Below are positions 20,650 to 60,198 of a stretch of DNA of 64,000 nt, in pieces; position 1 is the stretch's first letter, and the number at the start of each line of letters is the position of its first letter. Source of the DNA: Antedon mediterranea. Lineage: Eukaryota; Animalia; Echinodermata. The DNA lies in contig NC_092674.1 in assembly GCF_964355755.1 (NCBI RefSeq), forward strand, positions 13,268,001 through 13,332,000, in the 5' to 3' direction. The notes below the pieces were generated by a model. It did not search any database. It had not been told where the DNA came from and was given only the letters and a program-made list of their open reading frames with translations. Both the position numbers and the translations under genes were made by a program.

Positions 20650-22979
20650 TACGTACAATTTTCATAATGGAGAAATTATATCCAGGATATTAGTGTATTG
20701 GTAGTAGCACAAACATCATTTATTCTGGTGATTAACGTAACTAATCACAGTTTAACGTTGGGAAACATGTAGTGTTAATTTAATTATAGGCATAATATAA
20801 AAAGACAATTTGTATTAATCATTACCATTATTAATAACGATTACGGTATAAGTTTACCTTATCAATAAATGATTAGGAGAAGAAAAATAATAAACATGTC
20901 AGCCGATTGCAAAATTGAACCAAATCAAATGAAAACGGAATAAAAACAATGATCAATATTGCACTTGTTTAGTGAATTTTAGATGTTAAAACGGCCACAA
21001 TACGAGGTAGGCCTACTTTGTAGTGGCATTGAAGTAGAGTATGGCTTACGTGGTTTAACGTCTGAACTGTACTAACTTTAAATCAACTGGAGCTCATCAG
21101 TCATACATTTCGGATTTGACAAAGAATGTTTGGAAAATCAAAACTGATTACATTCCGATTTTCAGGATGTTTAAATATTGTCAAAAACGGTAGGAAGACC
21201 TAAACTTACTGTGATTTGTTTGTATTTAAATTATAATAGTATGAGGTTAATTTGGCCTAAAACAGTTTAGTGAATTGTGTTACTCACGCTCACGATCTCT
21301 TTTCGCGAATTCTAATCTCACATAAATAGGCAATGAAATCATTCATAAAAACATTCAAATGTCTTAAACTGAATTCTACAATGTAATGAATTAGTGACAC
21401 CTCAAATAATTATAAGCCTATCGGCCCGGTTGTGTATTATTTGCAGTTTTTTTACCAACAAATAGCGTGTTACATTAGTCCAGTCTATAAAGGGACTAGT
21501 GACATTATCGCACGTCGCATTACCTATAAACGGTCTAATTCTGCCTCTCGCTCACCCTCTAGTAAGTGTGGACGATGGATCTCGGAATGTTAAATAATAA
21601 CTCGAGTAAAACATTGGTTACCCTATTTATTGCAATGCTTGCTATTCGTTAAAATAAACATAATCTGTTTATCAGTGTCTTTTTTAGACTAAATAAGATG
21701 AGGAATATAACAATTTAAAGTACCATGTTTATTATTCGGGGCGTGGTGGGTGTTAGGGTGGCGGCGTTCATTCAAGGGAGGCGTTTGTTGGTAACATTTC
21801 ATAATTAATACATACCTCTAGATATGGACAAACCTGCCTTTAGATATAAAGAATATTAAGACTAAAAATAATTTTGTTAAAAATATAGCAGAACTTGTAT
21901 TATCAAGATACTGATTTATGGTGGCCCATCTTGTTTTTGTGTTGTTTTGTTTATGTCCTTTATTACTGTATGTTAATTTTCATTGATATGTATGCTTTTG
22001 CTATTTTAGTGTTAGTCTTTGAAGTAAATGTATTTGTTAGTATTGGGTAAGCCTTCAACTATCGAAAGCTATTTGGTTTGCTCCAATTTGCTTTTGCTAT
22101 TCGTGAATAAAGAGTAAAAACACAAAACCGTATTAAAAAATTATCAAGAAGTGATAAATAAACAAACAATTCTATCAAAATGCTTGGTAAATTGTAAATA
22201 TAGCAGTCAATGAATTCTTCTACAAATATAATTGTGTTTGTGTTAAAATACAATATTGCGTTGATAGTATTATGTGGCGGGGCGTTTATTAGAAGGTGGA
22301 GGTTGAATATTCCAAATATTTTTCATGTGGGAGAGGCGTTTATTCAAATAAATGCATTAGACCTAATTGGTATAATCAATACATTATTTAGTTTAAATCA
22401 AACACCAAATAATGACAATCATCAGTAGGCCATTTCGGCATAAGCAAGACGTTTTCAAACTGATTGCAACAACATGGGCCAAAGCATTCCGGGTCTCACG
22501 GCGATACACATGCAGGTAGGGGCACAATTGATTTGATGTGTTTTTTTGCAGTATATATTTTATTTTGCTTAAGTTCAATCTACACTATCAAACTTTATGT
22601 GAAAAAAAAGTGATGTACCTTTTTATGGACATGATGATGTCATATCACTACCATATTTGGGCACATTACATTTTTTTTTAAATTGATGTTATCTATATTT
22701 GTTATTCAACGTATAAAATGGAACTTCGAGTAATCGCTGACGGGATAGCGACATAACATGACACTTTGCTGGATTCAATGACAGTAGGTTGGATGTAGAC
22801 CACTTTGCAATACTACTACTACGACGTACTCTTGTAATGATAAAATATCACAATCTTAGCGAACACATCTTGAAAAGAACGTGTCATCCGCGTATTGTCA
22901 GGGTTAATTTAGTAAATGTAGTTGCAAAACATAAATATTTAATATTAATGACCCTTGTGGTATTAGTGAGTTGGTTTAT

Positions 22980-24815
22980 TTTAGGTATGCTATGTACGCC
23001 GGTACGCTCTTTAAATTTTAAAATTAAATATTTATTTAATCACACTGAATTATATTATAGTAACACTTATTATTAATGTTTGTAACACTTACATTTCTTG
23101 GAAGATCGAATTTAGCACCAGCCTTGAGCAAAATAGTGCAAACATCTGTGTGGCCGTTTTGTGCAGCCAAATATAAAGGTGACGCTCCATCCTGAAACAT
23201 TACAAACATGATGTTATAGTAGTTTTCACTCTAAACAAAGTATTAATATTGTACTGAAATAAATACGATGTTATCAATTAAAAATAACGTTATGGATTCA
23301 AATAATGCTACTTTGTTAAATTAAATAAAGATTATTAACCTCTGGTGTTTACTTTAAGATAATGTATTGTATACGTATACATTGGTCTTGTTTGTATAAT
23401 ATTGTTCATATAAGTACTGTACAATTGTAAACCAAATAAGTGTTTCTTTGCCTTTATCAGGTAGTGCTGACAAGTGTAAATTATGATAAGGTGGCGTTTG
23501 AACTGGCAGTTATGACAAAAAATATAATACTAGGATCCAAATTCTGTTCAACTAAATACTTACTATTGACTTTGTTTTAGTTACTGGGCTGCAATAGTTT
23601 TTTTTTTAGTTTTTTTTTTTTTAAAGATGTTTTACTAAATCAAATTGATATATCAATTCATATCCATTTAATGTATCATTTTCATAAATAAATAATGTAG
23701 CTCTGTATAGTACAATACAATACAGAAACAGAAAAGTCACCATTCAAAAAAAATCAGTCTCTAACATTCAGTGTTCTAAATGCAGATGTTAAAACTATTA
23801 CGGAATCTATTTGCACAAGGGGTGATGGACCGCTTCCTTGAACTTCAAAAATAGTACATGCGATAGGTTGGGTCTTGTTGAATCGAATGTGTTTTCTTAG
23901 TAAAGTATCTAATGATTCAAATTGAGATCTGCTTGAGATCTGCTCTGCTCGTGCCATGTTTATACCCTTACCCTTTATTGGTCGTGCCTTTTTTAAGATC
24001 ACTAGTGATTTATTTACAATCTTCAGAGTGGGTACCGTATTAATTTCATATTGTAGGTGAGTTTACGTTATAAAATGTCTTCATTGTTTTCAATTGTTTT
24101 CACCTGCTTTGATAGAGACAATACTGTTAATAATTGTTTATTAGTAAACACATAGTGTACACAAAACCAACCTAGTGTATTTTGTGCACATAATAGTGTG
24201 TAACATTTGTAATTTAGAGCGTTTATTTGACACGACAAAGCATGTGAACTCCTGAAAACGTACAGAATCATAATAATGTAGTACATATTGAATTTTGACG
24301 TAATGATTGTTGTTGTTTTTTTAGACCACACTAAGTGGTTGGTGTAACTTCACAATAATGATAATATAATGAAACATCATATGTTAGTCACCTTAATATG
24401 GTCATTTGCCATATACAGTTGAACATTCGTGAGTGGTCACCTCCCGTAGTTTCAAAAGCCCGTTTGTTCTTCATCAAATTAGTGGACCTCCTGTAAGCAG
24501 CCATCTCATGTGAGCGGCCGCGGAACTTTTTTTTTTCTCTTTTGTGAGGTTCACTCAACTTTATTTCATTTCAAAACATAAATAAAAAATTGTATTATGT
24601 TTGTATATTATTTTTTTTAATATATACTATTTTCATTCATAGACATAAAGTTTTCTCTTACATCTAAAAAAAACTCTGCAAGATATCATTTAATTTATAC
24701 ATTTACATTACATTTAAACTGAAAACAATATCAATAAATATGGAAAATCAAAATCAACTCAATAACCGGTTGCTTGTAGAGTATAGCATTTTCTATGCTC
24801 TTTTTTTTTTACTCT
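22980..24815. repeat. Recent exon+intron duplication, near-identical to ~39095-40977
   Basis: Colinear, a few percent divergent by eye; includes ankyrin exons 23093-23191 and 39194-39292. Confidence 0.92.
23093..23191 (-). CDS. Ankyrin-repeat exon (DGASPLYLAAQNGHTDVCTILLKAGAKFDLPRN)
   Basis: 99 nt, CAG acceptor, GTAAGT donor. Confidence 0.93.
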
Positions 24816-25775: not shown

Positions 25776-27794
25776 ATGCCTTCTCGCTGTGTTGCTGCGA
25801 ATTGTGGTCATGAAAATAACTTATTGTTTCGGTGGCCAAAGGACAGTTTCATCACCAGGCAATGGACAAGATTTGTACGTACAAAACGCGATATAAACCC
25901 ACAGCTCGATGATCAGTCCTTTGTTTTAAGCATTTTTCAGACGATTCATTTACAAACATGGGTCAATTCAAAGTTGGTCTAGCTACAAAGTAAGTATTTG
26001 TTAATTAGATGAATTTCCTTTTAATATTTTACCTTTAAAAAAAGCTGAATAAAATACGTTCGCCGTCGCTATTTTTAGGCCTGCTGGGCCAAGCCTAGCT
26101 TCTATCTAGGCGCGCGGGCAGCGATTTTTTTTTTCGTACATAAGTTGGGGACCCCCTCATGAAACGTCACAAAATAAACATGAATAATTCATCAGTTAAA
26201 TGTGTTGTTCCGTGTGCACCCAAGCGTATAGCAACAAGAAGCGATTACACAACTGCGATACGATACTTTCTACAGTAGGCCTAGGATTCTAAGTCAATTC
26301 ACGCGATTGCCTTCGCGCACTCTTCTTCAAAATGTGTCGAGTCGAGGCTAATCGACAGGTAGGCAAGACATTAAACTAAGTAGTAATTCATTGGACATAG
26401 CCCAAAGAAAGCTTAGACCCACAAGAATAAAGAATGTGTATAATTTGTGTAGGCCTACTGTATTTTTTTTAAGTCTGCTATTTATTATCAAACAATGCAC
26501 GTACTCAAAGGAACTTTAAAAATGCGCGTATATGAACACATGAGATGGGAAGATTAGACCCACGAGAATAAAAAATGTATTTTTGTGTAATGTTTATTGT
26601 TTAATTTTGCTGACTTATTACTCGGATTGTGTCATACCTATAACACACACACACACACAGCTCTACTACTAGAATAGACATATGTTTAGAGACTAATAAT
26701 TAGGCCTAGGCCTAATAGTATTAATAGAAACTATAATTTTAACACGTAATTCTTTATTAATACATTATATTATTAAAAACACTATCATAAACTAAAGGCT
26801 GATTATTTCGACAATCCACACAAAACGCCGCTATTCTTCTATGAAATCGCACGCCGCAACAACAGCGCGGAGATAGGCCTAGAATCGTACCGCACTTGTG
26901 TGTAATCACTTCTTGTTGCTATACGCTTGGGTGCACACGGAACAAGAACATTTAACTGATGAATTATTCATGTTTATTTTGTGACGTTTCATGAGGGGGT
27001 CCCCAACTTATGTACGAAAAAAAAAATCGCGCGCGGGCACAATATGGCGTAACATTAAAACTACATACATACAGTACAGTTGCTTCGCCTGATATGTGTA
27101 TAGTATTTACTTTATGTTGGTTTATCTTTAAATAAACATAAAATAATAAGTAATAGTAACTAGTTTTGCATGCACACACAAATATCTCAACTAGGCCTAG
27201 TTGTTATGTATTTGGCTTATTTATTATTAATAATAATGGGATAGGGCTAGGCTAGCCAGGCCTAATTAGTACTACTGAATGCTGTACAATCATGATGGAG
27301 GGTAGTCAATGCCTACACTGTTATGCTCAGTAGGAGAATGTCCTGTCGGTGTAAGTGGGAATAACAACTATATTATAATTATATTGCTTACGTTATTTTG
27401 CCCTATAATATTAACTGGACAACGGTTTCCTCACTACTTTTAGGCTTTTACTGAATGCCAAAACAGCGGTACCAACAATACATGTTGTGAGGGAGACATC
27501 CGACGATGGTGGTCAGCACAGAGGTTAGTGTAATAGATTCAATAAATAAAAGAAAAAATGTTTAGGTTTGTCTGATATTTATTTATTAATAGTATTAATA
27601 TTCAATCCAACAGGTCAGCATTTGTTAAAAGAGAAAAGGCGAGAGTGATCAAGGAGTTTATTACTGGAACAGAGGATGAGGAAGAGGATGAACAGGAGCT
27701 GGCCAGTGTATGCGATAAGCCTCTTATGGTGTCCAGAGGCACACAGACACAAAAGCAAAGAAATAATAAAATTGTTGAAATATTCACAATGTAA
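25776..27794 (+). pseudogene. THAP-domain gene, 3 exons (25776-25989, 27444-27523, 27614-27794), frameshifted
   Basis: MPSRCVAANC...FRWPKD...RQW, then after a frameshift CFKHFSDDSF...spliced to LLLNAKTAVPTI: C2CH and AVPTI motifs; GT-AG introns. Confidence 0.85.
26121..27030. mobile_element. MULE-type MITE in THAP intron 1
   Basis: ~145-bp TIRs starting GCGATTTTT; perfect 9-bp TSD GCGCGGGCA. Confidence 0.88.
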
Positions 27795-29013: not shown

Positions 29014-30279
29014 AACAAATATTCAGTAAGCTTGTTGTGATCGCCGCGGGGTGTGTTATAAGGCGCAAGATGCAGGTTAGTTCCTCCTCGCGATCGTCGG
29101 TGTTCTGGCTGTGACGTCACATACAAATGTCGAAAGGTAACATTTCGTGACCAAATAACGACACACATAATGAATTGCTTTTTTTTTCATATATATAACA
29201 ATTTATTATTGAAACTCAATTTAACATAGTATCTACATATATTATTCTTGATACTGATAATAGTAAATGTCGTATTTGTCGAAAGTGTAGCACTAGCACT
29301 TTAAATAATTTGTGTAAACAGCGTTTGCCAACTGAAAAGTTTGGACTAGTGGCGAAGGCTTTAACCTATTACGATGGAGCCCTCGGTTCGAGGTCTTTCA
29401 AGAACATGTTTTTTTTAAATAGTTGAGAGAGATTATTTAGAGGGTTAGGTTTAGTATATTTAGGAAGTAGATCAGCTATCTTGCAATTCTTTATAATAGA
29501 AAATAATTAAGGTAATGAATTATTCATGATTTCTGCCTTATCTGACGAGTAAAGAAAATTTCGCGCCCGGGTCTCTGGTTTCCAGGGGCGTTGTCATATT
29601 ATCGAGAACCATTCATATACACTCACTAGAAGGTGAGAGAGCAAAGCAAACGAATCTAGTTATTATAAATACGCTAACATTTACCTCATGGAAGACATTT
29701 AGCTCGTAGTATTATGAACGTGCGCTTATAGCGCATCGTGGTGTTAAGCCGAATATAAAAAAATATTAGTGAAACGCGTAATAACATTGCAGTAATAATA
29801 TTTAATTCATAAATTTAATGAAAATATAATCAAACAAAACAATTGTTCTGGAAGTTGTTTAAGGGTTATTTTAAAAAAAAACACATCGACTACGATTTAT
29901 TTTTAAACAATGTTAATATGTTTTGGTATCGGAATATGTCATATTTTCGATGAATTAAATACACTTATTTTGATAGCTAAAAAATTTATATTCAACTGTA
30001 ACATTAAAGATGACCCACTGTATTTTAACAAATTTAAAGTCATTGTTAAAAGAAATATTGAAATAGAAACAAATGTTGATTTGAAAATGATAATATGCAT
30101 ACAACCTAAATGAACAAATTAGGAATATAATCTACCTTTTAACTACCATGATATGTATAAATGTTCGTTTGATTGTGTTTTGTTTTGTATGTTGTTGTTG
30201 AGAAGCATTTTGTTTGTCTTGTTGCTACAGCTGGTGGCGCATTGTTTCTTTTTTTGGAATTGAAATAATAAAAAAAAAT

Positions 30280-30450
30280 ATTACAAAGTGCGACAGGAGT
30301 TATTACAAAGTGCGACAGGAGTTATTACAAAGTGTGTGAGCTCGATTACTACAAAGTGCAAAGGTTATCACAAAGTGTGACAGTTGTGTAACCATGTGCG
30401 CACGACAGTTATTACACAGTATTATGTGACGATTAAAGTGCGACAATACA
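30280..30450. repeat. Minisatellite, ~21-bp unit TTATTACAAAGTGCGACAGGAG
   Basis: About 7 degenerate tandem copies. Confidence 0.8.
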
Positions 30451-31421
30451 AAGCGGGTTTAAAGATAGTTATTATAAGTAGAGAACATGATGGTATAGTC
30501 AGTCGTGGTTATAACAATGGTTAACAATGGGGATAGTATAAGACAATAGAGTATATCATTTCACTAGAATTGTTATATAGATTTGTTATATATTAATATA
30601 CATTATAATATAAAATTAATAAATATTAAATAAAAATGATATGGTGATTTAGTTGCTTGTGAACAAATGGTTTACAATGGTTGAAGTCAATAGGTGTTAT
30701 GTTTCGGATTATAATACAATGGTTAACATAGGGTAAGGAAGTGAGACAATAATAGTTTTTGTAAGATTTGAATTAGTCATGGATTCAATAAAGATGCACC
30801 TGGTTAATTAAAACTAGTTAATTGAGGTTTTTGCTTGATGTATGCCGACATAATACAAAGACATAAGTTATTTGATCCGGATATTATAACAATGACTAAA
30901 ACAAAAAGATAAGAATGAATAGTTAAATAGCGTTTACAGGCAAAATATAGGCAAAATTGTAAGTATTAGTCAGATGTACAAATTACTGAAAAACAAAATA
31001 TTACTAGGAAGTATGAAACAATAGGTATTGTGTTTCGGGGTATATAACAATATATGTTAAAGGTGTCTTCCGACATATAATTAATACGGGGTATTTTATA
31101 ACAAAGATAAAAATAAAAAGAAGACTATAATGAAGTGATATAATAAGTATGTCTTGCTTGATCTTTGGCGACATAATCCAAAGACATAAGGCATTTTCTT
31201 CCGGATATTTAAGATTTGAAAATAAACGTTATTTAAGTATGTACAATTAAGTAAATAAAAGGTAATCTTCTGATGTCATGCATAAATTAATTTATGTTTA
31301 AATATCGGGGGGGGGGGGAGGGGGTATTATTTGAAATTCTATGTCAGTGTTTTCAATTACATCGAAGTCACTCAAACTCTAGTACTAGTTCCAAAGTATT
31401 ACCGTTACACGAGGTTAAAAG

Positions 31422-31922
31422 ATGAATTCTAACGTGTATACCGGTAATGAACAAAAATTTGAAAACAGCAGTCTTAGCGGTAACGAGGAATTTTTGTTAG
31501 AAATTCTTGATGACAACGATGAAATGGTAAGTTGAATCAATTTGTACAAGAAAAAAAAAGAAATTTACGTATATTATTTTCAAAATGTTATTAAGATTTA
31601 ATTTGTTCTGTCTGTTACATGGGGTCTTGTTATTTAATTTTCAGATTCGATGTATAGAAGAGTTAATTGATGATCAGAACGAATTATGTAATGAAATGGT
31701 AAGTTACTATTTCTATAAATTTATTTTTAAAATGGTAATAATATATGATATTTAGTCTAATATAAACAACATTTTGTATTACAGTACGGTATTTTGATTG
31801 AAAGTAGTAATAACGAAAGGGAAGAAACACTTCAATTAGAGAATGACATGGCAGTTGCAGAAATTTGCCGCATTGCAAGAAACAAAAGAGGTAATTTAGA
31901 CGAAGAAGAAAATGATTTATGA
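31422..31922 (+). CDS. Spliced 98-aa acidic protein with an IxCxE motif (exons 31422-31526, 31645-31698, 31785-31922)
   Basis: Two GTAAGT...CAG phase-0 introns join an open frame from ATG to TGA; missed by the ORF track. Confidence 0.7.
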
Positions 31923-32109
31923 GTATGATTGCACTTCGACCAATGTTCCGACAGGAAATACAACAATGACAATTGGCTGAAACAAATTTAGTAAATGCCG
32001 AATGTAATCATTTGACTGTATATAACTCTCGATTATTTTGTAATCTTTACCTCATTCTACAACGCTACAGAGCTCGACAAGACAGACCAAAAACCAACAA
32101 CTAGTTACT

Positions 32110-32913
32110 ATGGTTTCCGTGATTGAAATCATTGATCTTACTATGGACTCTCATGTCGAAGAAGATGTTACATATATATAAGCAGTGATTCAGAATTTGA
32201 AGACGAAGACATACTAGCTATGACTGGTGCCTATTTTACAGCAGAGGAGGAGGAAGAGATGAGGGAAGAGATGGGGGATATGACGTGTTTAATGGTGATT
32301 CAACCCCCACCTCCAATGAACGTTGATTTCAATAATGTATCTAATACTGAAGAAGACGAACATTATAGATCGAGAATAATTTCTGAAGAGGAGAGGATTG
32401 TATACGACGACACGTCATCGGTAGTTGACTACCACCTATTTCTGGCAAGAAAAGCCGATATAGAAGATGAGGTAGAAGATGGGGTGTTTGCGGAAGAGTA
32501 CCTGAACCCTGTGCTGGGGATGGAAATTTAGAAAGAAACTACCGAACAATGATGAGGTGTTTACGGAAGAGTACTTGAACCCTGTGCTGGAGGCGGAAAT
32601 TAAGAAAGAAACTACCGAACTTAAGTACAAAGAAATAATGAGAACAATTGAGAAGGTTTTCAAAGAAGAATTTATATTCATTCTGAATGACATGGTTGAA
32701 CGTTATAACTTTCACGGCTCAAGATATGAGCAACTTCTAACAATTTTTCGACCAATTCTGGCATTGAAACTTGTGGACAATAGCGCTATCCATTTTGAAT
32801 GGGCGCTAAACTACTTTCATTTACGTTGTATCAATGTTGATGCGTTCGATAAAGCCATAAAGTTGATTACAAATGATTCAGAACTGTTTAATAAGATTCT
32901 TAACCAGTTGTAA
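32110..32913 (+). pseudogene. Left-arm copy of the acidic SIM-motif gene plus downstream helical ORF
   Basis: Mirror of 36327-37126; +2 insertion near 32170 and AAG>TAG at 32529-31; downstream part 32557-32913 open. Confidence 0.8.
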
Positions 32914-33159
32914 TTTATATAAATTTAAATATTATCATAACACTTTTAATTAATGTTATATATTTTTATAATTCTTATTTCTTTTCGGTAAATTTATTAT
33001 TATTATGGTTGTAAAATATATTGAAATAGAATGTGTGTTAAAATAAAGGTTGTGTGTTTTTTTTAAGGCAACAACGAAAATGAAATTTGATCTTTGCGTG
33101 GTATTTAAGTATTTGATTTATTTTTTTAATTTTAATTTGGTTGAATGAGGGTAATGAGT

Positions 33160-33390
33160 ATGGATGAGTACATAAGAAAAGTATATTACGATCTTAAGCA
33201 TCCTGATAGTTTAGGTGGTGTGGACCGACTTTATCAAAATGTAAAAGACGATTTAAATATTACCAAGAGACAAGTTCAAGACTGACTGTGCAAGCAAGAT
33301 ACATTATACATTACACAAATCCATTCAACGTAAATTCAAACGAAACTGGGTACTTGTAAGTGCTATTGATGAACAATGGGAACTGGATTG
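33160..33390 (+). pseudogene. Maverick/Polinton integrase N-terminal fragment
   Basis: MDEYIRKVYYDLKHPDSLGGVDRLYQNVK...VQD*LCKQDT/YTLHKSIQRKFKRNWVLVSAIDEQWELD; truncated at about the first catalytic Asp. Confidence 0.88.
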
Positions 33391-34869
33391 GGAAAAATAA
33401 CGTGTTTGCAAAATCAAAGGTTTGACTTTAAAGGAAGTCAATTTTGAAATAGTTGGTAGCATGGTACGGGTACTAATCCTAACAAAATAACCCGTAAACC
33501 AAAATCTAGCTTAATATTTATTTTATATTATAAATTTGTAAAAGTAGTTACCATATTTTAATTTATGGTAAATTTATTTTTCGAATTAATTTAATTTGTT
33601 TTCTTTTCTGTTGAATTTTTATTATTATTATGTTTGTAAAGTGTATTGCAATAGATTTGTTTAATGAAATAAATTAATTATGTTTTGACTTAATTTATGT
33701 CAGTGTAAATTTGTAAAAGTAGTTTCCCTATTTTAATTCATGATAAATTTATTTCTTTTCTGTTAAAGTTTTATTATTATTATTATGTTTTGTAAAGTGT
33801 ATTACAATAGAATGTGTATTTCAATAAATTTTGTTTTTAACATCAACAACAAAAATGAAATTTTATCTTTGCGTGTTGTTTAATTCGTGTATGATGTTTT
33901 TCTAATTTATTTATAAAAAAAACAAAAATTGACTTTAAATTTCAAAAAGTCAAAGGAATTCAATTTTGAAATAGTTAGTAGCATGGTACAAGGAATCGAC
34001 AAGGAAAAAATAACAACAATTAATTTAATTTAATTCTTCTTTTCTGTGGAATTATTATTATTATTATTATTATTATTATGTTTGTGAAGTGTATTGCAAT
34101 AGATTTGTTTAATGAAATAAGTTAATTATGTTTTGACTTAATTTATGTCAGTGTAAATTTTGTAAAAGTAGTTTTCCTATTTTAATTCATGGTAAATTTA
34201 TTTCTTGACTTAATTTAATTAGTTATCTTTTCTGCTGTTATATATATGTTTTTTAAGGTGTAGTGCAATAGAATGTGTATTGAAATAAATTTTGTTTTTA
34301 ACAGCAACAATAAAAATGAAATTTGATCTTTGCGTGTTATTTAATTCCTGTATGATGTTTTTCTAATTTATTTCTACAAAAAGAAAACACATTTTTGAAT
34401 TTGTTAAATGTAATTGCAAACACGCATAATAAATGATTGTGATTAAAAATATTCTGTTTACTTCTTTTATTTTAAACAGTAGGTCTATAATGTAAAGTTA
34501 TATTTTATAATATAATAAGTAATATTACAAAAATAAACATACACAATGTATAATGCATATATTTATTACATTTAAATACAATTTTTTTATTTCAAAATGA
34601 ATTTCATATTCTACGTGTTTTTCAATTTTAAATCTTTTAAGAAAGACACAATACGTACTGCTAAAAAAAAAACACGATATGTAACGACGGTTTCAATAAA
34701 AAGTCATATTATAAATGTATTTTTACCAAATTTATAAAGTAAAGGGTTATTATTGAGAAATATACATTTTAGATAAATGATAACACATCTAAAATTAATT
34801 AGAGAGATCAATACAATATGGTGTTCATAATAATTTGTTTTGATGACTAGAGGAAACATCTGAAGACAT

Positions 34870-35415
34870 TCAACAAAAAACAAGCGTTAACACCATACCA
34901 GTCACTAAGAATGCTACTACTCTGAAAAAAACATCTCCCTTCCTGCACACAAAAATTAAAATAATTAGTAAACGAAACACGCGCATTTTAAATAAAATGA
35001 ATAATTTAAGAATATTTGTTAAAATACCCACGAACAAAAAAAAAAGAAACATACTAACCGATTCATCGTCATTACGAAGTTCAAATAACGAAAACTTTTC
35101 CTTGAAAAATCCACAAGAGACACGTTTTACATTTTCTAACTGCATTTCAGTGTCACATTGTTTCGCAACACATGTACATACAACGAGTCCTGTCACAAGT
35201 CTGCCGAAATTTATTTTTTTATCGCTCATCATTTGTTCTAATACATAATACAGCGCTTCCGAAGAAATATCTTTACACAATTCTAACACATTAAAATTGT
35301 TTTCCAACTCTTTACAAGCACGAATAGTACTCTGGAGGATGGGTGAATCCAAAACAATTAACCCCGTCAATTTATATTAAATGTATGCTAAAACTACTTC
35401 CTCTAAATCAACCAT
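34870..35415 (-). pseudogene. Bcl-2-family homologue in the palindrome spacer, with one in-frame TAA at codon 13
   Basis: BH4-like EEVVLAYI*YKL, BH3-like ILQSTIRACKELENNF, BH1-like YVLEQMMSDKKINFGRLVTGL, hydrophobic C-terminal tail; intronless. Confidence 0.8.
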
Positions 35416-35847
35416 AACGCTCGACAAAACAAATGATAATGGATGTAATTACCATGAAAGTTACAACTTAAAACATTTTAAAGAAATAAATTTATCATGA
35501 ATTAAAATAGGGAAACTACTTTTACAAATTTACACTGACATAAATTAAGTCAAAACATAATTAATTTATTTCATTAAACAAATCTATTGCAATACACTTT
35601 ACAAACATAATAATAATAAAAATTCAACAGAAAAGAAAACAAATTAAATTAATTCGAAAAATAAATTTACCATAAATTAAAATAGGGTAACTACTTTTAC
35701 AAATTTATAATATAAAATAAATATTAAGCGAGATTTTGGTTTACGGGTTATTTTGTTAGGATTAGTACCCGTACCATGCTACCAACTATTTCAAAATTGA
35801 CTTCCTTTAAAGTCAAACCTTTGATTTTGCAAACACGTTATTTTTCC

Positions 35848-36078
35848 CAATCCAGTTCCCATTGTTCATCAATAGCACTTACAAGTACCCAGTTTCGTTT
35901 GAATTTACGTTGAATGGATTTGTGTAATGTATAATGTATCTTACTTGCACAGTCAGTCTTGAACTTGTCTCTTGGTAATATTTAAATCGTCTTTTACATT
36001 TTGATAAAGTCGGTCCACACCACCTAAACTATCAGGATGCTTAAGATCGTAATATACTTTTCTTATGTACTCATCCAT
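35848..36078 (-). pseudogene. Right-arm copy of the integrase fragment
   Basis: Reverse complement of 33160-33390 with the same TGA and frameshift, plus an extra CAA>TAA. Confidence 0.88.
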
Positions 36079-36685
36079 ACTCATTACCCTCATTCAACCA
36101 AATTAAAATTAAAAAAATAAATCAAATACTTAAATACCACGCAAAGATCAAATTTCATTTTCGTTGTTGCCTTAAAAAAACACACAACCTTTATTTTAAC
36201 ACACATTCTATTTCAATATATTTTACAACCATAATAATAATAAATTTACCGAAAAGAAATAAGAATTATAAAAATATATAACATTAATTAAAAGTGTTAT
36301 GATAATATTTAAATTTATATAAATTACAACTGGTTAAGAATCTTATTAAACAGTTCTGAATCATTTGTAATCAACTTTATGGCTTTATCGAACGCATCAA
36401 CATTGATACAACGTAAATGAAAGTAGTTTAGCGCCCATTCAAAATGGATAGCGCTATTGTCCACAAGTTTCAATGCCAGAATTGGTCGAAAAAAATGTTA
36501 GAAGTTGCTCATATCTTGAGCCGTGAAAGTTATAACGTTCAACCATGTCATTCAGAATGAATATAAATTCTTCTATGAAAACCTTCTCAATTGTTCTCAT
36601 TATTTCTTTGTACTTAAGTTCGGTAGTTTCTTTCTTAATTTCAGCCTCCAGCACAGGGTTCAGGTACTCTTCCGTAAACACCTCA

Positions 36686-37126
36686 TCATTGTTCGGTAGT
36701 TTCTTTCTTAATTTCCGCCTCCAGCACAGGGTTCAGGTACTCTTCCGCAAACACCCCATCTTCTACCTCATCTTCTACATCGGCTTTTCTTGCCAGAAAT
36801 AGGTGGTAGTCAACTACCGATGACGTGTCGTCGTATACAATCCTCTCCTCTTCAGAAATTATTCTCGATCTATAATGTTCGTCTTCTTCAGTATTAGATA
36901 CATTATTGAAATCAACGTTCATTGGAGGTGGGGGTTGAATCGCCATTAAACACGTCATATCCCCCATCTCTTCCCTCATCTCTTCCTCCTCCTCTGCTGT
37001 AAAATAGGCACCAGTCATAGCTAGTATGTCTTCGTCTTCAAATTCTGAATCACTGCTTATATATATAACATCTTCTTCGACATCAGAGTCCATAGTAAGA
37101 TCAATGATTTCAATCACGGAAACCAT
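36686..37126 (-). CDS. Acidic 146-aa protein with two N-terminal SUMO-interacting-like motifs (right-arm copy, open)
   Basis: VIEIIDLTMDSD and VIYISSDSE; TATA-like sequence upstream; continues in another frame into a repeat (EEYLNPVLEAEIKKETTE x2) and a helical region to ~36327. Confidence 0.7.
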   Translation of the reverse strand: MVSVIEIIDLTMDSDVEEDVIYISSDSEFEDEDILAMTGAYFTAEEEEEMREEMGDMTCLMAIQPPPPMNVDFNNVSNTEEDEHYRSRIISEEERIVYDDTSSVVDYHLFLARKADVEDEVEDGVFAEEYLNPVLEAEIKKETTEQ

Positions 37127-37314
37127 AGTAACTAGTTGTGGGTTTTTGGTCTGTCTTGTCGAGCTCTGTAGCGTTGTAGAATGAGGTAAAGATTACAAAA
37201 TAATCGAGAGTTATATACAGTCAAAGGATTACATTCTGCATTTACTAAATTTGTTTCAGCCAATTGTCATTGTTGTATTTCCTGTCGGAACATTGGTCGA
37301 AGTGCAATCATACT

Positions 37315-37816
37315 CATAAATCATTTTCTTCTTCGTCTAAATTACCTCTTTTGTTTCTTGCAATGCGACAAATTTCTGCAACTGCCATGTCATTCTCTAA
37401 TTGAAGTGTTTCTTCCCTTTCGTTATTACTACTTTCAATCAAAATACCGTACTGTAACACAAAATGTTGTTTATATTAGACTAAATATCATATATTATTA
37501 CCATTTTAAAAATAAATTTATAGAAATAGTAACTTACCATTTCATTACATAATTCGTTCTGATCATCAATTAACTCTTCTATACATCGAATCTGAAAATT
37601 AAGTAACAAGACCCCATGTAACAGACAGAACAAATTAAATCTTAATAACATTTTGAAAATAATATACGTACATTTCTTTTTTTTTCTTGTACAAATTGAT
37701 TCAACTTACCATTTCATCGTTGTCATCAAGAATTTCTAACAAAAATTCCTCGTTACCGCTAAGACTGCTCTGTTTTCAAATTCTTGTTCATTACCGGTAT
37801 GCACGTTAGAATTCAT
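37315..37816 (-). pseudogene. Right-arm copy of the spliced IxCxE gene
   Basis: Mirror of 31422-31922 with a +2 (AG) insertion in exon 1 near 37770. Confidence 0.65.
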
Positions 37817-39193
37817 CTTTTAACCTCGTGTAACGGTAATACTTTGGAACTAGTACTAGAGTTTGAGTGACTTCGATGTAATTGAAAACACTGACATAGA
37901 ATTTCAAATAATACCCCCTCCCCCCCCCCCACCCCGATATTTAAACATAAATTAATTTATGCAGGACATCAGAAGATTACCTTTTATTTACTTAATTGTA
38001 CATACTTAAATAACCTTTATTTTCAAATCCTAAATATCCGGAAGAAAATGCCTTATGTCTTTGGATTATGTCGCCAAAGATCAAGCAAGACATACTTATT
38101 ATATCACTTCATTATAGTCTTCTTTTTATTTTTATCTTTGTTATAAAATACCCCGTATTAATTATATGTCGGAAGACACCTTTAACATATATTGTTATAT
38201 ACCCCGAAACACAATACCTATTGTTTCATACTTCCTAGTAATTTGTTTTTCAGTAATTTGTACATCTGACTAATACTTACAATTTTGCCTATATTTTGCC
38301 TGTAAACGCTATTTAACTATTCATTCTTATCTTTTTGTTTTAGTCATTGTTATAATATCCGGATCAAATAACTTATGTCTTTGTATTATGTCGGCATACA
38401 TCAAGCAAAAACCTCAATTAACTAGTTTTAATTAACCAGGTGCATCTTTATTGAATCCATGACTAATTCAAATCTTACAAAAACTATTATTGTCTCACTT
38501 CCTTACCCTATGTTAACCATTGTATTATAATCCGAAACATAACACCTATTGACTTCAACCATTGTAAACAATTTGTTCACAAGCAACTAAATCACCATAT
38601 CATTTTTATTTAATATTTATTAATTTTATATTATAATGTATATTAATATATAACAAATCTATATAACAATTCTAGTGAAATGATATACTCTATTGTCTTA
38701 TACTATCCCCATTGTTAACCATTGTTATAACCACGACTGACTATACCATCATGTTCTCTACTATTATATATGAGATTTTTTTTTTTTTCAAGACAGTTTA
38801 TCAGGAACCGATCCATATTTTGTTCTTTCTTGAGTAAAGTTTCGGGATCATTAATTTGACAAATAATAGTTCTTTGGTGAGATCTTGCTTGGAAGTTTCC
38901 AGGTCTCGGGGTTTAAATGACCGCGACTTTTAAACTATCATTGGTTGATCTAACTGCCCAATGTCAAGATTAACCTTGACGAAGTAGCGGTGTTCCGAAC
39001 CATGTTAGGGGTACAACCGTGCAGTTCTCGACAATACAGTAATCCTCGATACAAAATATGAAATGATATATGACCCGCAATGTGAGTTGGTTCATTTAGG
39101 TATGCTATGTACGCCGGTATGCTCTTTAAATTTTAAAATTAAATCACATTGAATTATATAGTAACACTTATTATTAATGTTTGTAACACTTAC

Positions 39194-39292
39194 ATTGCTT
39201 CGAAGATTCAATTTAGCACCAGCCTTGAGCAAAACAGTGCAAACATCTGTGTGGCCGTTTTGTGCAGCCAGATATAAAGGTGACGCTCCATC
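39194..39292 (-). CDS. Ankyrin-repeat exon (DGASPLYLAAQNGHTDVCTVLLKAGAKLNLRSN)
   Basis: 99 nt, CAG acceptor, GTAAGT donor. Confidence 0.93.
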
Positions 39293-39696
39293 CTGAAACA
39301 TTACAAACATGATGTTATAGTAGTTTTCACTCTAAACAAATTATTAATATTGTACTGAAATCAATACGATGTTATCAATTAAAAATAACGTTATGGATTC
39401 AAATAATGCTACTTTGTTAAATTAAATAAAGATTATTAACCTCTGGTGTTTACTTTAAGATAATAGATTGTATACGTATACATTTGTTTTGCTTGTATAA
39501 TATTGTTCATATAAGTACTGTACAAATGTAAACCATATAAGTGTTTCTTTGCCTTTATCAAGTAGTGCTGACGAGTGTAAATTATGATAAGGTGGCGTTA
39601 GAACTGGCAGTTATGACAAAAAATATTATACTAGGATTCAAATTCTGTTCAACTAAATACTTACTATTGACTTTGTTTTACTTACTGGGCTGGAAT

Positions 39697-39734
<38 letters not shown>

Positions 39735-40977
39735 TGTTTTACTAAATCAAATTGATATATCGATTCATATCCATTTAATGTATCATTTTCATAAAATAAA
39801 TAATGTAGCTCTGTACAGCACAATACAATACAGAAACAGAAAAGTCACCATTGAAAAAAATCATTCTCTAACATTCAGTTTTCTAAATGCAGATGTTAAA
39901 ACTATTACGGAATCTATTTGCACAAGGGGTGATGGACCGCTTCCTTGAATTTCAAAAATAGTACATGCGATAGGTTGGGTCTTGTAAAATCGAATGTGTT
40001 TTTTTAGTAAAGTATCTAATGATTCAAATTGAGATCTGCTTGAGGTCTGCTCTGCTCGTTTGAGTTCAAACGTGTCATTTTGTGCCATGTTTTTCCCTTA
40101 CCATTTATTGGTCGTGCCATTTTTAAGATCACTAGTGATTTATTTACAATCTTCAGAGTGGGTACCGTATTAATTTCATATTGTAGGTGAGTTTACGTTA
40201 TAAAATGTCTTAATTGTTTTCAATTGTTTTCACCTGCTTTGATAGAGACAATACTGTTAATAATTGTTTATTAGTAAACACATAGTGTACACAAAACCCA
40301 CCTAGTGTATTTGTGCACATAATAGTGTGTAACATTTGTAATTTAGAGCGTTTAATTGACACGATAACGCATGTGAACTCCTGAAAACGTACAGAATCAT
40401 AATAATGTAGTACATATTGAATTTTGACGTAATGATTGTTGTTGTTTTTTTAGACCACACTAAGTGGTTGGTGTAACTTCACAATAATGATATAATGAAA
40501 CATCATATGTTAGTCACCTTAATAATGGTCATTTGCCATATACGATGATTTAAAAATTCAGAGTTTTAATATTATAGTATTACAGTTGAACATTCGTGAG
40601 TGGTCACCTCCCGTAGTTTCAAAAGCCCGTTTGTTCTTCATCCAATTAGTGGACCTCCTGTAAGCAGCCATCTCATGTGAGCGGCCGCGGAAATTTTTTT
40701 TTTCTCTTTTTTGAGGTTCACTCAACTTTATTTCATTTCAAAACATAAATAAACAATTTTCCTATGTTTGTATATTATTTTTTTTAATATATACTATTTT
40801 CATTCATAGACATAAAGTTTTCTCTTACATCTAAAAAAAACTCTGCAAGATATCAGTTATACATTTACATTACATTTAAACTGAAAACAATATCAATAAA
40901 TATGGAAAATCAAAAGCAACTCAATAACCGGTTGCTTGTAGAGTATAGCATTTTCTATGCTCTTTTTTTTTTACTCT

Positions 40978-44157: not shown

Positions 44158-47100
44158 CACCCGATTCTGCTACTGTCCACAGGTGCTATCTTTAAAACTA
44201 TAGCAAGTTATACACGTTGTTGTCTGCTATAAATGCTGTACTTTTAACACACGGTACACTGTCTGTAGCACAGTGTGTGTTGACAATTTACAATGATGTA
44301 CAACCATAGGCAGGTTTTCGTACTGCCATGCAAGAATGGATAGGTGTTTTCCGCCGCTTTTAGGCCTTCTAGTCAGTTATTGTTATTATTATACGAATTA
44401 CGTAATTGGTCTAGTAGCTCATCTACCTTTTTAGCAGGGCATAATGAATATTGTAGCTAGGCTAGGGCTACTAGTCTAGCGGAAAATCAACCAATTATTT
44501 GGTTGGATACGAGTTTAGGGTAGGAAGTTAAGTACGAGTTGGCATGGGTACGAGACGACCAGGGGTGAATCGACCAGAGTACACCCGGCTGCCCTACTAG
44601 AGCATAGGCTACAGGCCTGCAGGAATGGGAAATCTGTCTTAGCTATAGGCATAGGCCTACATTGGGACGCCCAAAAAAGCCATCATATGAGCATAAAAAG
44701 GCCTCGTAGAGCCAGACATGTTAACATACACTACACAGTACTAGTACGTCTACCATTTATTATAGTTCCATGGTACTACGGATCACTACTATCTAGGTCT
44801 AGTAGTAGTAGTAGGCTAGCTAGGGTAGGGTTCCAGTAATTTTGGTCGCGTTTTTTCAGGAGGGCATGCGAGAGGTGAGGTAGGTTAGCCCAGCTAGGCT
44901 AAACTAACATGTAAGTAGTATTCTACCATGGGATGGGAACGAGTCGGCATGGGGGTACGGGTTGATCTTTATCCGTATTCTATGATGCTGGTCAACCCGT
45001 AAAGTACCCATGTCAACTCGTACCAAACTTGGCTAACTCGTACCCAAATAATTGGTCAACTCGTACCAATAGCTTTATAGCTTTATTGATAGCTGGGTTC
45101 AAATCTAGTTTGGGACGTTTTTTTCTCATTCTAAAACAGATTTCCTTATAATAATAAAATAATATCGACCTATGAATTTAACTGTAATATTGTATTGTAT
45201 GCATAATATTAGTAGTAAAAGTAATTCCCATTGAATTTATTATTATAATATATTTTACGGTAACCCCTTAATTATACTATAGTATAACTTCCTTGTTATA
45301 TTTTACAATATTTTCTTCATAATTCAACAATTTTTTTTCACAGCTAATTATCAAACTGAATCATCACACACCAAATCTCATGAAATCTCTAGTGTATTTC
45401 TCCAAGCTAATCCAGCTACATGGTATTGCCTTGAGGCTAAACTACACTGTATACTGGGCACTACCATCATTCCTGGCCCGTCAACCTGGACCACATTATG
45501 GTCCAACACAGTCGTGTAGTACTGATTCCAAATAGTGAATTACATCCTGTGGTCAAGGATTTATTTGCACTTATGCTTATTTCCTCCAACATACCGTAGA
45601 GTACGTAGGGCTTTTAATTTGCTTTTATACCTGTTAATTAAAAAATCGTTTATGCCTATTGTTGCATAAAGATCAAATTTAGACTGTAAATACTGGGATG
45701 ATCACCCTACATTTTCTTTTTCATTTAACAATTTTATATTTCACAGCCAGAAAAAAGCATACAGAGTTTTTTTATTCATAACTGTTGAATTGCATCCCAA
45801 TACATGGTACCTATTGGTATTATATCTATAATAATAAAGTACTCTCTTATAAATAGATCTTTCCAAACCACTCCAACTACATAATCTAATAATAGTACTA
45901 TTAGCATACTACTGTACACTTTGTAGACAAGAAATAAGTTGTATCCACCTAGATGACTTATGTTAGTATTGTACAGTCGATCGTCCTCTCACTAGTCTGG
46001 TCAACATAATCTACGCCTAGATTATTACAGTAATTAAAGTACATTATTACAGAGATTTTTTTTTTCAGAAATCAAAGTTATGTGTATAGAAAGCAGTACT
46101 CGTATTAAAAACTAAGCAGGTTGTACTCTTGAACGCCAGCTGGCAGGAATATTTTGAATATTTGTTGTTGTTGAAATGATGGAATCCTAACTTCAATTTC
46201 CACGAACTGGAGACGAAGACATATTACGACCCTTTTATTTAAATTTATTTGGATAGACATCCATGTAAATTCATTAAAGGCTATATGATTGTTTTATATT
46301 TTAATATGTGATAGTAGAAAATCATTGTGTATAATGAGGACTATGAATCTGATATTTACTTGCATTCTCATCTTTTTAAAATTTTATTTATAATGCTGGT
46401 AATGAATTTACTATTGAAAAAGTCATGTGTCCACTTATCTCAAATTGTGGCACACCTCTAACCTTGGTAGAACTGACTGTGTTCTATATGAGTACATTTA
46501 ATTTGCCATTATAGTAGTGTTTCCACCATACTTGAACCTGGTAATTGAATACATTTCATCGGGGTAAAATTATCACCTTTAACATAAAGTATCCTCCTGA
46601 AACATGTATTTGTACTGTACTTCATCTACTATTCATTTAATTACTTAATACTAATTTGGGTGATTTATGTCTAACTTCAGGAATGATCTGAGGCTAGAAG
46701 AACGAATTTCTGCACATATAGTTTATATAAAAAATAAACCAATGTTTTCCTAAAAAGTTAACCCCTAGGTTGATAACTAACAAAGAAATTATTAAAATTG
46801 TGTTCTCACAATATATGTGTACTGTATCTACATATGCATACTGCTGTACTTGTTTTTAACCGCATAATGGCATTTAAAAAAAAGAATGTTTTATAATTAT
46901 TATGTTATTTCCAAATATTAAAGGTCTGAAACAGAAACTAAATGTTACCAAACTATGTTTTTGAAAATCTCTATGATATAATATAATAATATGAACATAA
47001 TATTAAATTATATTGACTATTTTTGATAATCGTCATGTCCTTATAAATTCATTTATATTTCTTTTGTGTAATATAGTTCATATATTATGTATTAAATAAA

Positions 47101-50100: not shown

Positions 50101-51071
50101 CTCGCAATCATCAAGGGCTGGCTCGTACTCTTCATGGGCTGACCAGTATCCATGTTTAATGCTATTAAAAGTTTGGGTACAGGTTAGCCAAAGTTGGTAC
50201 GATTTGACCAATTATTTGAGTACGGGTTAGCCAAATTGGGTACGAGTTGGCATGGGGGTTGACCAGCACCCTAGAAAATGATAAGGGTCAACCCGTACCA
50301 CTGTGCCAACTCGTTCCCATGCTGGAATACTACTTACAGGTTAGTTTAGCCTAGCTGGGCTAACCTACCTCACCTCTCACATGCCCTCCTGATAAGTAGG
50401 CCGAAAACGCGACCGAAATTACTAGGCCTAGCCTAGATAGTAGTGATCCGCAGTATAGTACCATGGAACTATAGTATAATAAATGGTAGACGTACTAGTA
50501 CTGTGTAGTATAGGCTAACACGTCTGACCTGTTTATGCTCATGGGATTGCTTTTTTGGGCGTCCCAATGTAGGCCTATGCCTATAGCTAGGACAGATTTC
50601 CCATTCCTGCAGGCCTGTAGCCTATGCTCTAGTAGGGCGGCCGGGTGTACCCTGGTCGATTCACCACTGGACGACTCGTACCCATGCCAACTCGTACTTA
50701 ACTTCCTACCCTAAACTCGTATCCAACCAAATAATTGGTTGATTTCCCGCTAGACTAGTAGGCCTAGCCTAGCTACAATATTCATTATGCCCTGCTAAAA
50801 AGGAAGATGAGCTACTAAACTAATTACGTAATTCGTATAATAATAACAATAATTGACAAGAAGGCCTAAAAGCGGCGGAAAAGACCTATCCATTCTTGCA
50901 TGGCAGTACGAAAACCTGCCCATGGTTGTACATCGTTGTAAATTGTCAACAGGCACTGTGCTACAGACAGTGTACCGTGTATTAAAAGTACAGCATTTAT
51001 AGCAGACAACAACGTGTATAACTTGCTATAGTTTTACAGATAGTACCTGTGGACAGTAGCAGAATCGGGTG
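44158..51071. mobile_element. 6.9-kb foldback DNA element, possibly P/Galileo-like and non-autonomous
   Basis: Termini CACCCGATTCTGCTACTG...CAGTAGCAGAATCGGGTG; arms pair inward to ~48082/48260; flanks AAATATA / CAATATA (7 bp, 1 mismatch); joined flanks match the paralogous intron at ~6530-6960. Confidence 0.85.
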
Positions 51072-58310: not shown

Positions 58311-58536
58311 ACTTATATCATTAATGTATGTATTTTTGTATATTATTGTAATATTCGATGTTTTTTTTTACTATTATAATGTCAATTATTATCCTATTGG
58401 AAATAAGGATTTAGGCGAAACCAGCCTAGTAATTTGAATTTCTACAGACGCCCATTAAATTGTAAAATTGTTATTATTTTTTTTAATCAAACTGAATTAT
58501 ATAGCACCTGTTATTAATAATATTTGTAACAATTAC

Positions 58537-58635
58537 ATTGTTTGGAAGATCAACTTTAGCACCTGCCTTGAGCAATATAGTGCAAACGGCTGTGTGGCCC
58601 TTTTCTGCAGCCGTATTTAAAGGTGACCATTCATT
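58537..58635 (-). CDS. Ankyrin-repeat exon with a mutated acceptor (NEWSPLNTAAEKGHTAVCTILLKAGAKVDLPNN)
   Basis: Open 99-nt repeat with GTAATT donor, but the acceptor reads CAA instead of CAG. Confidence 0.7.
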
Positions 58636-58911
58636 TTGAAATAATTACAAACATCATGTTATTGTAGTCTTCTACAAAAAGCTAATTAATATTGTATTTA
58701 AGTCAATTCTATGTGATCAAGAAAAATTATCTTAAAGGCCAGATGAGGGGAAAGAATTCCTATTAATCTTACATTCCAATATCTATATTTTCCCCTATGT
58801 TTCATAGTTGATGGGATTTTATTTGTAATTGGTCAGATGTTTTGCTCTACTCTGACGTAATTTATTCTTCATATTAAGTACATTATTGAGAACACTTTCG
58901 CATTCCAATTA

Positions 58912-58960
58912 GTTCTCGGGTGGGACTTGAACCCACGACCTCCAGATCGCTGATCTTTCG
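58912..58960 (-). mobile_element. tRNA-related SINE fragment
   Basis: GGTCGTGGGTTCAAGTCCCACCCGAG T-arm/B-box; no D-arm or acceptor-stem partner found. Confidence 0.4.
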
Positions 58961-59987: not shown

Positions 59988-60198
59988 TGGCTCCCTCAAG
60001 GACGTAAACTAATTACATTAACATTGAAGTCCTTGTAAATTAAATATAAAAGTTCTTGTTGAAACATAACATATAAGTACACTCAAAAGTTCTAATGCAT
60101 ATCCAAGCAAAAAGTTCATATTAAAATAAACAAATTTCTTGATTCCATTTTCTCAATACGCATCAAACGGTTGGCTCCCTGACTGGGATTGGACCACT

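What the first reader, a model, noticed from the sequence alone, without database searches (positions are those of the whole stretch)
30477..38762. Maverick-derived element retaining an E1A/E1B-like host-control cassette (IxCxE + tandem SIM + Bcl-2)
Seen: no pPolB, ATPase, protease or capsid genes, but terminus-proximal genes for a spliced acidic IxCxE protein and an acidic protein with two SIM-like motifs, an integrase stub and a central Bcl-2 homologue. Established: small DNA tumour viruses pair an Rb-binding protein with an apoptosis blocker (adenovirus E1A and E1B-19K) and many use SIMs against SUMO-based defence; Mavericks are relatives of adenoviruses, and Rb-motif or anti-apoptotic accessory genes have been reported in some of them. 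Inference: the parent is a bona fide virus of this invertebrate with a cell-cycle/SUMO/apoptosis early module, here preserved as a mobile satellite-like unit. Novelty of this exact combination cannot be established from the window.
Basis: partly seen in the sequence, partly recalled or inferred. Interest (0 to 1): 0.9.

Follow-up and report, generated by a model that had tools for sequence, protein, structure and literature searches.

The report
Palindromic defective Maverick with decaying cargo
An 8.3-kb leftover of a Maverick (a virus-like DNA transposon of animals) has lost its replication and capsid genes, carries its left end twice in mirror image, and still holds mostly broken accessory genes, one of them Bcl-2-like, which likely ride along as passengers rather than work as an adenovirus-like host-control module.

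Summary
The element is real: 30477-38762, AGT…ACT ends, a perfect 6-bp target duplication, an empty paralogous site, and a 76-residue stub of a Maverick-type integrase; no polymerase, ATPase or capsid gene. The Bcl-2-like frame is supported (Pfam E 2e-5, below cut-off; Atlas 0.92) but has a premature stop. The SIM-motif gene is broken in both arms. The spliced IxCxE gene is open in one arm only; one run shows its exon 2-3 junction and exon 2 is conserved among family copies, but the motif alone arises in 7-11% of shuffles and fails most published 'Oncoid' criteria. Related copies occur in runs of four organism codes; in two runs the IxCxE gene has about a tenth of the depth of its neighbours, so the trio does not seem kept as a unit. 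No parent was found. Oncoid plus Bcl-2 genes are already reported in Mavericks (adintoviruses). Verdict: a non-autonomous Maverick deletion derivative with decaying accessory cargo; moderate interest.

The parts
30471..30476 (.). left target-site duplication (6 bp)
   Evidence: identical to 38763-38768; single copy at the paralogous empty site near 10260
30477..33758 (+). left arm of the palindrome (terminal inverted repeat plus genes 1, 2 and integrase stub)
   Evidence: 98.8% identical to the reverse complement of 35480-38762: 27 substitutions, 13 gap letters
31422..31922 (+). gene 1, left copy: three exons 31422-31526, 31645-31698, 31785-31922; 98-aa acidic protein with IxCxE at the start of exon 2; open in this arm
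   Evidence: GT-AG phase-0 sites; exon 2-3 junction in loose ends of run X5, indels confined to introns in X6 and X1 contigs; motif tests
32110..32913 (+). gene 2, left copy: acidic N-terminal part with two SIM-like motifs and a helical-looking C-terminal part of no known family; broken near 32170 and 32500-32580
   Evidence: frames; tandem 73-nt unit; no Pfam, NCBIfam, PDB, Atlas or homologue hit
33160..33388 (+). integrase stub, left copy (first 76 residues, one stop, one frameshift)
   Evidence: 77% and 82% identity to P0001, PF00665; relatives of P0001 lie beside PolB and A32 ATPase
33531..34387 (.). degenerate AT-rich repeat units (about 150-230 nt); the arm/centre junction lies inside such a unit
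33759..35479 (.). unique centre of the palindrome
34870..35415 (-). Bcl-2-like pseudogene: in-frame stop at 35377-35379; BH1-like NFGR; predicted intron from 35058 or 35054 to 34943 at the position of the BH2 boundary; hydrophobic 3' tail
   Evidence: intron position compared with PMC8998228; intron not seen spliced
35480..38762 (-). right arm of the palindrome
35850..36078 (-). integrase stub, right copy (two stops, one frameshift)
36324..37126 (-). gene 2, right copy; SIM-like motifs in frame with the ATG, broken near 36690 and 36490
37314..37816 (-). gene 1, right copy; frameshift in exon 1
38763..38768 (.). right target-site duplication (6 bp)

Best explanation
This is a non-autonomous deletion derivative of a Maverick (Polinton/adintovirus) whose left end is present twice in mirror image and whose accessory genes are mostly broken; it was likely inserted by a helper element's integrase, and its genes likely hitchhike because they lay next to the ends that mobilisation needs. 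Shown: Maverick-type ends, 6-bp duplication, empty paralogous site, integrase stub, loss of core genes, palindrome, breaks in the genes, many related copies in other runs. Inferred: a parent with the order TIR - intron-bearing cargo (genes 1, 2) - integrase lost its core; the family spread in trans using a helper's protein-primed polymerase and integrase; this copy's palindrome arose by a template switch or recombination between oppositely oriented copies of an AT-rich repeat unit, which replaced the right end with a copy of the left. In the parent the genes probably were host-modulating: Bcl-2 fold about 90%, real SIMs about 70%, IxCxE a real Rb ligand about 45% (my estimates).
For: Ends, TSD and arms; empty site; stub and its Maverick context (6 of 6 scanned loci have rve, 5 of them with PolB or A32 among the frames scanned); published Maverick hallmarks of 6-bp TSD and AGT/AG end motifs, TIRs of 46-1447 bp, flanking accessory regions, 96% of loci degraded (PMC8097293, passages); intron-bearing cargo between left TIR and integrase (bioRxiv 2022.07.12.499685, passages); junction inside a repeat unit on both sides; 5 of 7 gene copies in the arms and centre other than left gene 1 carry breaks and both stubs are dead; contigs of 4 of 4 laid runs cover 29-30 of 30 bins and show many internal deletions; gene 1 exons 1-2 have about a tenth of neighbouring depth in X6 and X9; listed exon 1 and 3 differences are 13 non-synonymous to 2 synonymous.
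Against: Gene 1 is not simply dead: exon 2-3 junction in X5, 8 of 8 gap events intronic in the deepest X6 contigs (p about 2e-4 by length, introns are also more indel-prone), no listed difference in exon 2 (p about 0.007, but 33 of 73 rows were hidden). The deepest contigs of X1, X6 and X9 differ from this copy at the gene 2 break near 32.5 kb, so that break is not family-wide. Gene 2, the stub and the Bcl-2 region are all well covered in 4 of 4 runs, which could mean selection to keep them. No helper or parent was recovered. Contig depth is not copy number.
Confidence: 0.72

Rival explanations
1. A functional satellite: the non-autonomous family keeps and expresses gene 2 and the Bcl-2-like gene (and in some sublineages gene 1) because they help it or its helper, for example by blocking apoptosis and SUMO-based silencing in germ cells; the window copy is one decayed member.
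For: Spliced gene 1 junction in X5 and contigs of X5 over gene 2 and Bcl-2; gap-free contigs over 32206-32801 apart from one joint in X6; constraint on exon 2 and on exon frames; SIM-like motifs rare in shuffles (0.2% and 0.08%, patterns chosen after seeing them).
Against: The conservation may date from the autonomous parents; exon 1 and 3 differences look neutral; gene 1 under-represented in two runs; all but one gene copy here is broken; X5 is only guessed to be RNA.
Confidence: 0.17
2. The motifs are chance: gene 1 and gene 2 are real but unrelated to Rb or SUMO, and only the Bcl-2-like gene is host-control cargo.
For: [LI]xCxE arises in 10.7% and the fuller context in 6.8% of shuffles of gene 1; strict LxCxE, CR1 and CxxC absent; the Oncoid class is defined by motifs only (bioRxiv 2024.03.25.586562, passage).
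Against: Exon 2, which carries the motif, is the part shared by otherwise divergent contigs (X6 records 22, 23); the SIM-like pair is unlikely by chance. This rival concerns the parent's function and is compatible with the best explanation of the element.
Confidence: 0.3
3. The palindrome is an assembly artefact (fold-back read) or the element is another kind of transposon (foldback, Ginger) that captured Maverick pieces.
For: Very long near-perfect inverted repeats are known artefacts (recalled); single contigs suggest about 1:1 depth of arm and centre genes in three runs, so long arms are not the common form.
Against: Both ends are proper termini with distinct flanks and a shared TSD, arms differ at 27 sites and 9 gap places, an empty paralogous site exists; Ginger has 4-bp TSDs and TGT ends (PMC2836005, passages).
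Confidence: 0.05

Closest known systems
Maverick/Polinton elements (adintoviruses), degraded and non-autonomous copies
   Same: 6-bp TSD, AGT/AG-type ends, rve-chromo type integrase relative, accessory region between TIR and integrase
   Different: All core genes gone; inverted repeat of 3.28 kb, beyond the 46-1447 bp reported for intact vertebrate elements, because it includes genes
Adintovirus 'Oncoid' and Bcl2 accessory genes (Starrett et al., PMC8502044; passages, section 3.2 and supplement text seen)
   Same: Short acidic protein with an LxCxE-like motif and a Bcl-2 homologue on one Maverick; one map row lists Adintoc5:Bcl2, integrase, core genes and Oncoid together (layout read from PDF text)
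   Different: IxCxE variant without CR1 or CxxC; spliced; a SIM-motif gene is not mentioned there ('sumo' 0 occurrences); here on a coreless palindrome
Nematode Maverick cargo genes (Widen et al., bioRxiv 2022.07.12.499685; passages seen)
   Same: Intron-bearing genes between left TIR and integrase
   Different: Other gene families; those elements keep the core
Adenovirus E1A/E1B-19K early region (recalled, and as summarised)
   Same: Conceptual pairing of an Rb-type motif and a Bcl-2 fold; an Adeno_E1B_19K cluster is rank 8 (0.87) in the Atlas search
   Different: No sequence homology shown to E1A; no CR1 or zinc finger; genes not adjacent, on opposite strands; Bcl-2 gene with a predicted cellular-type intron; mostly pseudogenes
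Adenoviral defective genomes with a duplicated left end formed at inverted repeats (recalled; search 83 and reading 85 gave no supporting passage)
   Same: Left end present twice around a unique centre, junction in a repeat
   Different: Here integrated in a germ line with a TSD

Membership tests
Maverick/Polinton | 6-bp target-site duplication | tested here: met
   empty site
Maverick/Polinton | terminal inverted repeats with AGT/AG end motifs | tested here: met
   AGTAGA…TCTACT, a mix of the two motifs
Maverick/Polinton | retroviral-like (rve) integrase | tested here: inconclusive
   only a broken 76-residue N-terminal stub of the right type
Maverick/Polinton | protein-primed PolB, packaging ATPase, protease, capsid genes | tested here: not met
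   no tblastn hit in the window with 16 non-integrase proteins of related loci; no long frame in the element. Hence a derivative, not an autonomous member
Maverick/Polinton | autonomous parent with the same ends | not testable with these tools
   no host genome held; blank scans 25, 26, 72-74, 78
Bcl-2 family | profile match and BH1 NWGR-like motif | tested here: met
   PF00452 E 2.4e-5 but 25.2 bits under the 31.4 cut-off; NFGR; FPV039 E 0.0073 with X at the stop; Atlas 0.92, 207 of 256 features
Bcl-2 family | Bcl-2 fold in a confident model | tested here: inconclusive
   single-sequence models pLDDT 40-41; 9 of the top 10 PDB rows are Bcl-2 family by title in both searches, none with E <= 0.001; viral library uninformative
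Bcl-2 family | BH2 GGW motif | tested here: not met
   not in the translation; a predicted splice donor lies at about that position
Bcl-2 family | anti-apoptotic activity | not testable with these tools
   this copy has a premature stop
Oncoid / E1A-like Rb ligands | LxCxE | tested here: not met
   IxCxE only; that IxCxE can bind Rb is recalled
Oncoid / E1A-like Rb ligands | CK2 site just downstream | tested here: inconclusive
   nearest [ST]xx[DE] is 25 residues after the motif start, though the surroundings are acidic
Oncoid / E1A-like Rb ligands | CR1 motif and paired CxxC | tested here: not met
   other copies carry extra sequence near the 3' end of gene 1 that could not be read in full
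SIM-containing proteins | hydrophobic core plus acidic/serine flank, in tandem | tested here: met
   two motifs, consensus recalled; shuffles 0.2%, 0.08%, and 4.5% for two or more looser matches
SIM-containing proteins | SUMO binding; RING domain of STUbLs | not testable with these tools
   binding untested; no CxxC and only single cysteines in the natural frames, so no RING

The most novel reading that the evidence does not exclude
A widespread, high-copy satellite of a Maverick virus, shared by several related animal species, that has thrown away every replication and capsid gene but keeps and transcribes a captured, intron-bearing Bcl-2 gene, a tandem-SIM protein and a spliced Rb-motif protein, supplying anti-apoptotic and anti-silencing functions to itself and its helper.
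Probability: 0.15. Interest if true: 0.75.

Novelty: new variant of a known kind. Interest (0 to 1): 0.4.

Why it matters
It is a clean example of how Mavericks spawn coreless, still-mobile derivatives, with a gene-containing 3.3-kb palindrome that resembles defective genomes of linear DNA viruses. It adds a SIM-motif gene and an intron-bearing Bcl-2 gene to the known list of Maverick cargo, and gives rare transcript-level evidence (one splice junction) for an Oncoid-like gene. If the family's cargo proved to be under selection in the non-autonomous copies, it would be a satellite that pays its helper in host-control functions and a testable argument that Mavericks behave as infectious viruses.

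Tried and rejected
No host genome is held, so copy number and parents could not be surveyed. Homologue searches: Bcl-2 frame, 0 of 1 candidate; gene 2 C-terminal part among longer proteins only, 0 of 212 (proteins of similar length were not searched); representatives search with the Bcl-2 frame gave 2 hits, both repeat proteins (Sushi, LRR) rejected as spurious. Viral contigs: terminus pattern 0, gene 2 parts 0, Bcl-2 0, integrase 1 relative but 0 loci. Prokaryote genomes: 21 matches to a 17-mer, none with further similarity. None of 63 metagenome loci with related integrases holds a relative of genes 1, 2 or Bcl-2 at E < 1. No RNA holder was listed as such among 15 runs; X5 is a guess. No spliced joint was listed for the Bcl-2 intron or gene 1 intron 1 (tables cut). 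The VIA wide fold search did not run. No complex was predicted: no Rb, SUMO or Bax sequence was on hand. Earlier findings: 3 look-ups, nothing. Literature: 10 searches (listings seen) showed no paper on SIM genes in Mavericks or on gene-containing palindromic derivatives; the two founding Maverick papers are not held, so what they say on non-autonomous copies is recalled. Passages read without a bearing result: PMC6431247, bioRxiv 2025.02.07.637071, PMC3185507, PMC4584293 (STUbL and viral SIM background only). The Starrett supplement was cut when stored and its figures are not visible.
Full report
Anatomy. The element spans 30477-38762 (8286 bp), begins AGTAGA and ends TCTACT, and is flanked by ATTATA on both sides. 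A paralogous intron stretch near 10185-10430 aligns to the left flank up to the hexamer and to the right flank from it, with one copy of the hexamer and no element: an empty site, so this is a true insertion. It lies between two of six ankyrin-repeat exons on the minus strand (39301 and 23200), probably in an intron of a host gene; the host was not identified. The element is a palindrome: 30477-33758 and 35480-38762 are 98.8% identical (27 substitutions, 13 gap letters), around a unique centre of 1.7 kb. GC skew flips at the centre. Only 1 of the 27 substitutions lies in the outer 735 bases, against 6 expected (p about 0.02), a weak hint that the original terminal repeat was homogenised more recently than the inner arms.

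Maverick origin. Each arm ends in the first 76 codons of an integrase, 75-82% identical to P0001 (PF00665), with stop and frameshift. P0001 retrieves 63 metagenome loci; I scanned 38 frames from 6 of them, and all 6 have an rve-chromo integrase, 3 with PolB and 3 with an A32 ATPase, 5 with at least one. A 6-bp duplication, AGT/AG end motifs and flanking accessory regions are the published hallmarks (PMC8097293, passages); Ginger elements differ (PMC2836005, passages). Of 17 proteins from those loci only the integrase hits the window. The order TIR, intron-bearing genes, integrase is the cargo region described for nematode Mavericks (bioRxiv 2022.07.12.499685, passages).

Gene 1. Three phase-0 GT-AG exons give a 98-residue protein, 27 residues acidic, with IRCIE at the start of exon 2. 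It is open in the left arm and frameshifted in the right. It is a real gene: two loose ends in run X5 (RNA by guess) match the exon 2-exon 3 junction, 13 of 13 and 16 of 16 bases; the deepest X6 contigs have 8 of 8 gap events in introns; an X1 contig has exon 2 identical with all 6 substitutions and 4 gap letters in introns; two divergent X6 contigs match only exon 2 and its donor. None of the 40 listed difference rows (of 73) is in exon 2, whereas exons 1 and 3 show 13 non-synonymous and 2 synonymous rows, two of the former private to the left arm. The motif itself is weak evidence: [LI]xCxE appears in 10.7% of shuffles, the fuller context in 6.8%; strict LxCxE, CR1 and CxxC are absent and the nearest CK2-type site is 25 residues on (criteria from PMC8502044, section read). 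Loose ends at 31904-31941 in four runs show that other copies have more sequence there, so this copy may be shortened at its 3' end.

Gene 2. It starts with two SIM-like motifs with acidic and serine flanks (consensus recalled). Tight patterns occur in 0.2% and 0.08% of shuffles, two looser matches in 4.5% (patterns chosen after inspection). There is no RING. Both copies are broken, by a tandem 73-nt unit in both arms and further frameshifts. The deepest contigs of X1, X6 and X9 differ from this copy at the shared break, so it is not family-wide. No family, structure or homologue was found for either half.

Bcl-2-like gene. The minus-strand frame 34870-35415 has a stop at its 13th codon. It matches PF00452 at E 2.4e-5, below the curated cut-off, Bcl-2 clusters in the Atlas at 0.92 with recognition below the reliable range, and fowlpox FPV039 at E 0.055, improving to 0.0073 when the part before the stop is included with an X. 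Models are poor (pLDDT 40-41), yet 9 of the top 10 PDB rows are Bcl-2 family by title in both searches, none significant. Together this makes the family assignment likely. GGW is absent; a predicted intron begins where BH2 should end, the conserved exon boundary of cellular Bcl-2 genes (PMC8998228, passages), and a variant at the acceptor keeps YAG. This suggests capture from host DNA; the intron was not seen spliced, and one X5 contig runs through it.

The family. Fifteen runs in 6 studies and 4 organism codes hold part of the sequence, none more than 45% of the words. Four laid runs cover 29-30 of 30 bins with many variants and internal joints. Two hints come from depth, which is not copy number: single contigs over gene 2 and over the Bcl-2 3' region have similar depth (X1 1068 and 926, X6 2188 and 2662, X9 34 and 30), so long arms do not look like the common form; and 31244-31822 drops to 247-351 in X6 and 0.7-3.4 in X9 against roughly tenfold more on either side, with loose ends at 31173, so most copies there seem to lack the IxCxE exons. 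Three runs join 33405 to 33929, so their integrase is a stub too; one X1 contig at 89% identity runs on past the stub and may be a fuller relative.

Mechanism. Shown: insertion with Maverick signature, loss of core, palindrome, broken cargo, many relatives. Inferred: a parent lost its core by deletion, keeping end-proximal cargo; helpers supplied polymerase and integrase in trans (established model, recalled); in this lineage a switch between oppositely oriented AT-rich repeat units replaced the right end by a copy of the left, since the junction lies inside such a unit on both sides; after insertion the arms drifted by 0.8% and the genes decayed. The cargo probably served the parent virus, but nothing here shows that it serves the short element.

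Comparison and novelty. Oncoid genes and Bcl2 and IAP homologues are reported in adintoviruses, and one supplementary map row lists Bcl2, integrase, core genes and Oncoid together (PMC8502044, passages and supplement text); the Oncoid class is defined by motifs alone (bioRxiv 2024.03.25.586562, passage). The SIM gene, the spliced Oncoid-like gene with junction evidence and the gene-containing palindrome were not found in 10 paper searches of an incomplete library. It works like a non-autonomous Maverick and belongs to that lineage as a derivative; it resembles E1A/E1B only by analogy. Interest 0.4; the satellite reading has about 15% probability and would merit 0.75.

Noticed in passing
window 5410-58644, minus strand: Six similar ankyrin-repeat exons (near 5523, 10786, 18336, 23200, 39301, 58644), with duplicated intron blocks such as 39082-40977 and 22966-24815 at 93-97%: a host gene growing by exon-intron unit duplication.
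   Followed up: partly
window 30279-30470: A 22-nt tandem unit directly left of the element is very deep and has many loose ends in all four runs, so it is a separate high-copy repeat; a diverged version is at the paralogous site.
   Followed up: partly
run X6, record of 3261 bases laid on 31397-31659: A contig matches gene 1 exons 1-2 and then runs on for 3 kb unlike the window's terminal region: a candidate relative with another arrangement; its letters are not retrievable here.
   Followed up: no
window 26121-27030: A small element with inverted ends of about 145 bases, MITE-like.
   Followed up: no
window 44158-51071: Another set of long inverted repeats (44158-45069 with 50194-51071; 46510-47306 with 48667-49465; 88-92%), a second, older palindromic structure.
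   Followed up: no
window 56966-63716: Frames resembling reverse transcriptases and an LTR-element integrase and gag (labels recalled from the translations; no family scan).
   Followed up: no
L013 and L017: Distant Maverick loci carry C2H2 zinc-finger frames upstream of the ATPase and integrase.
   Followed up: no
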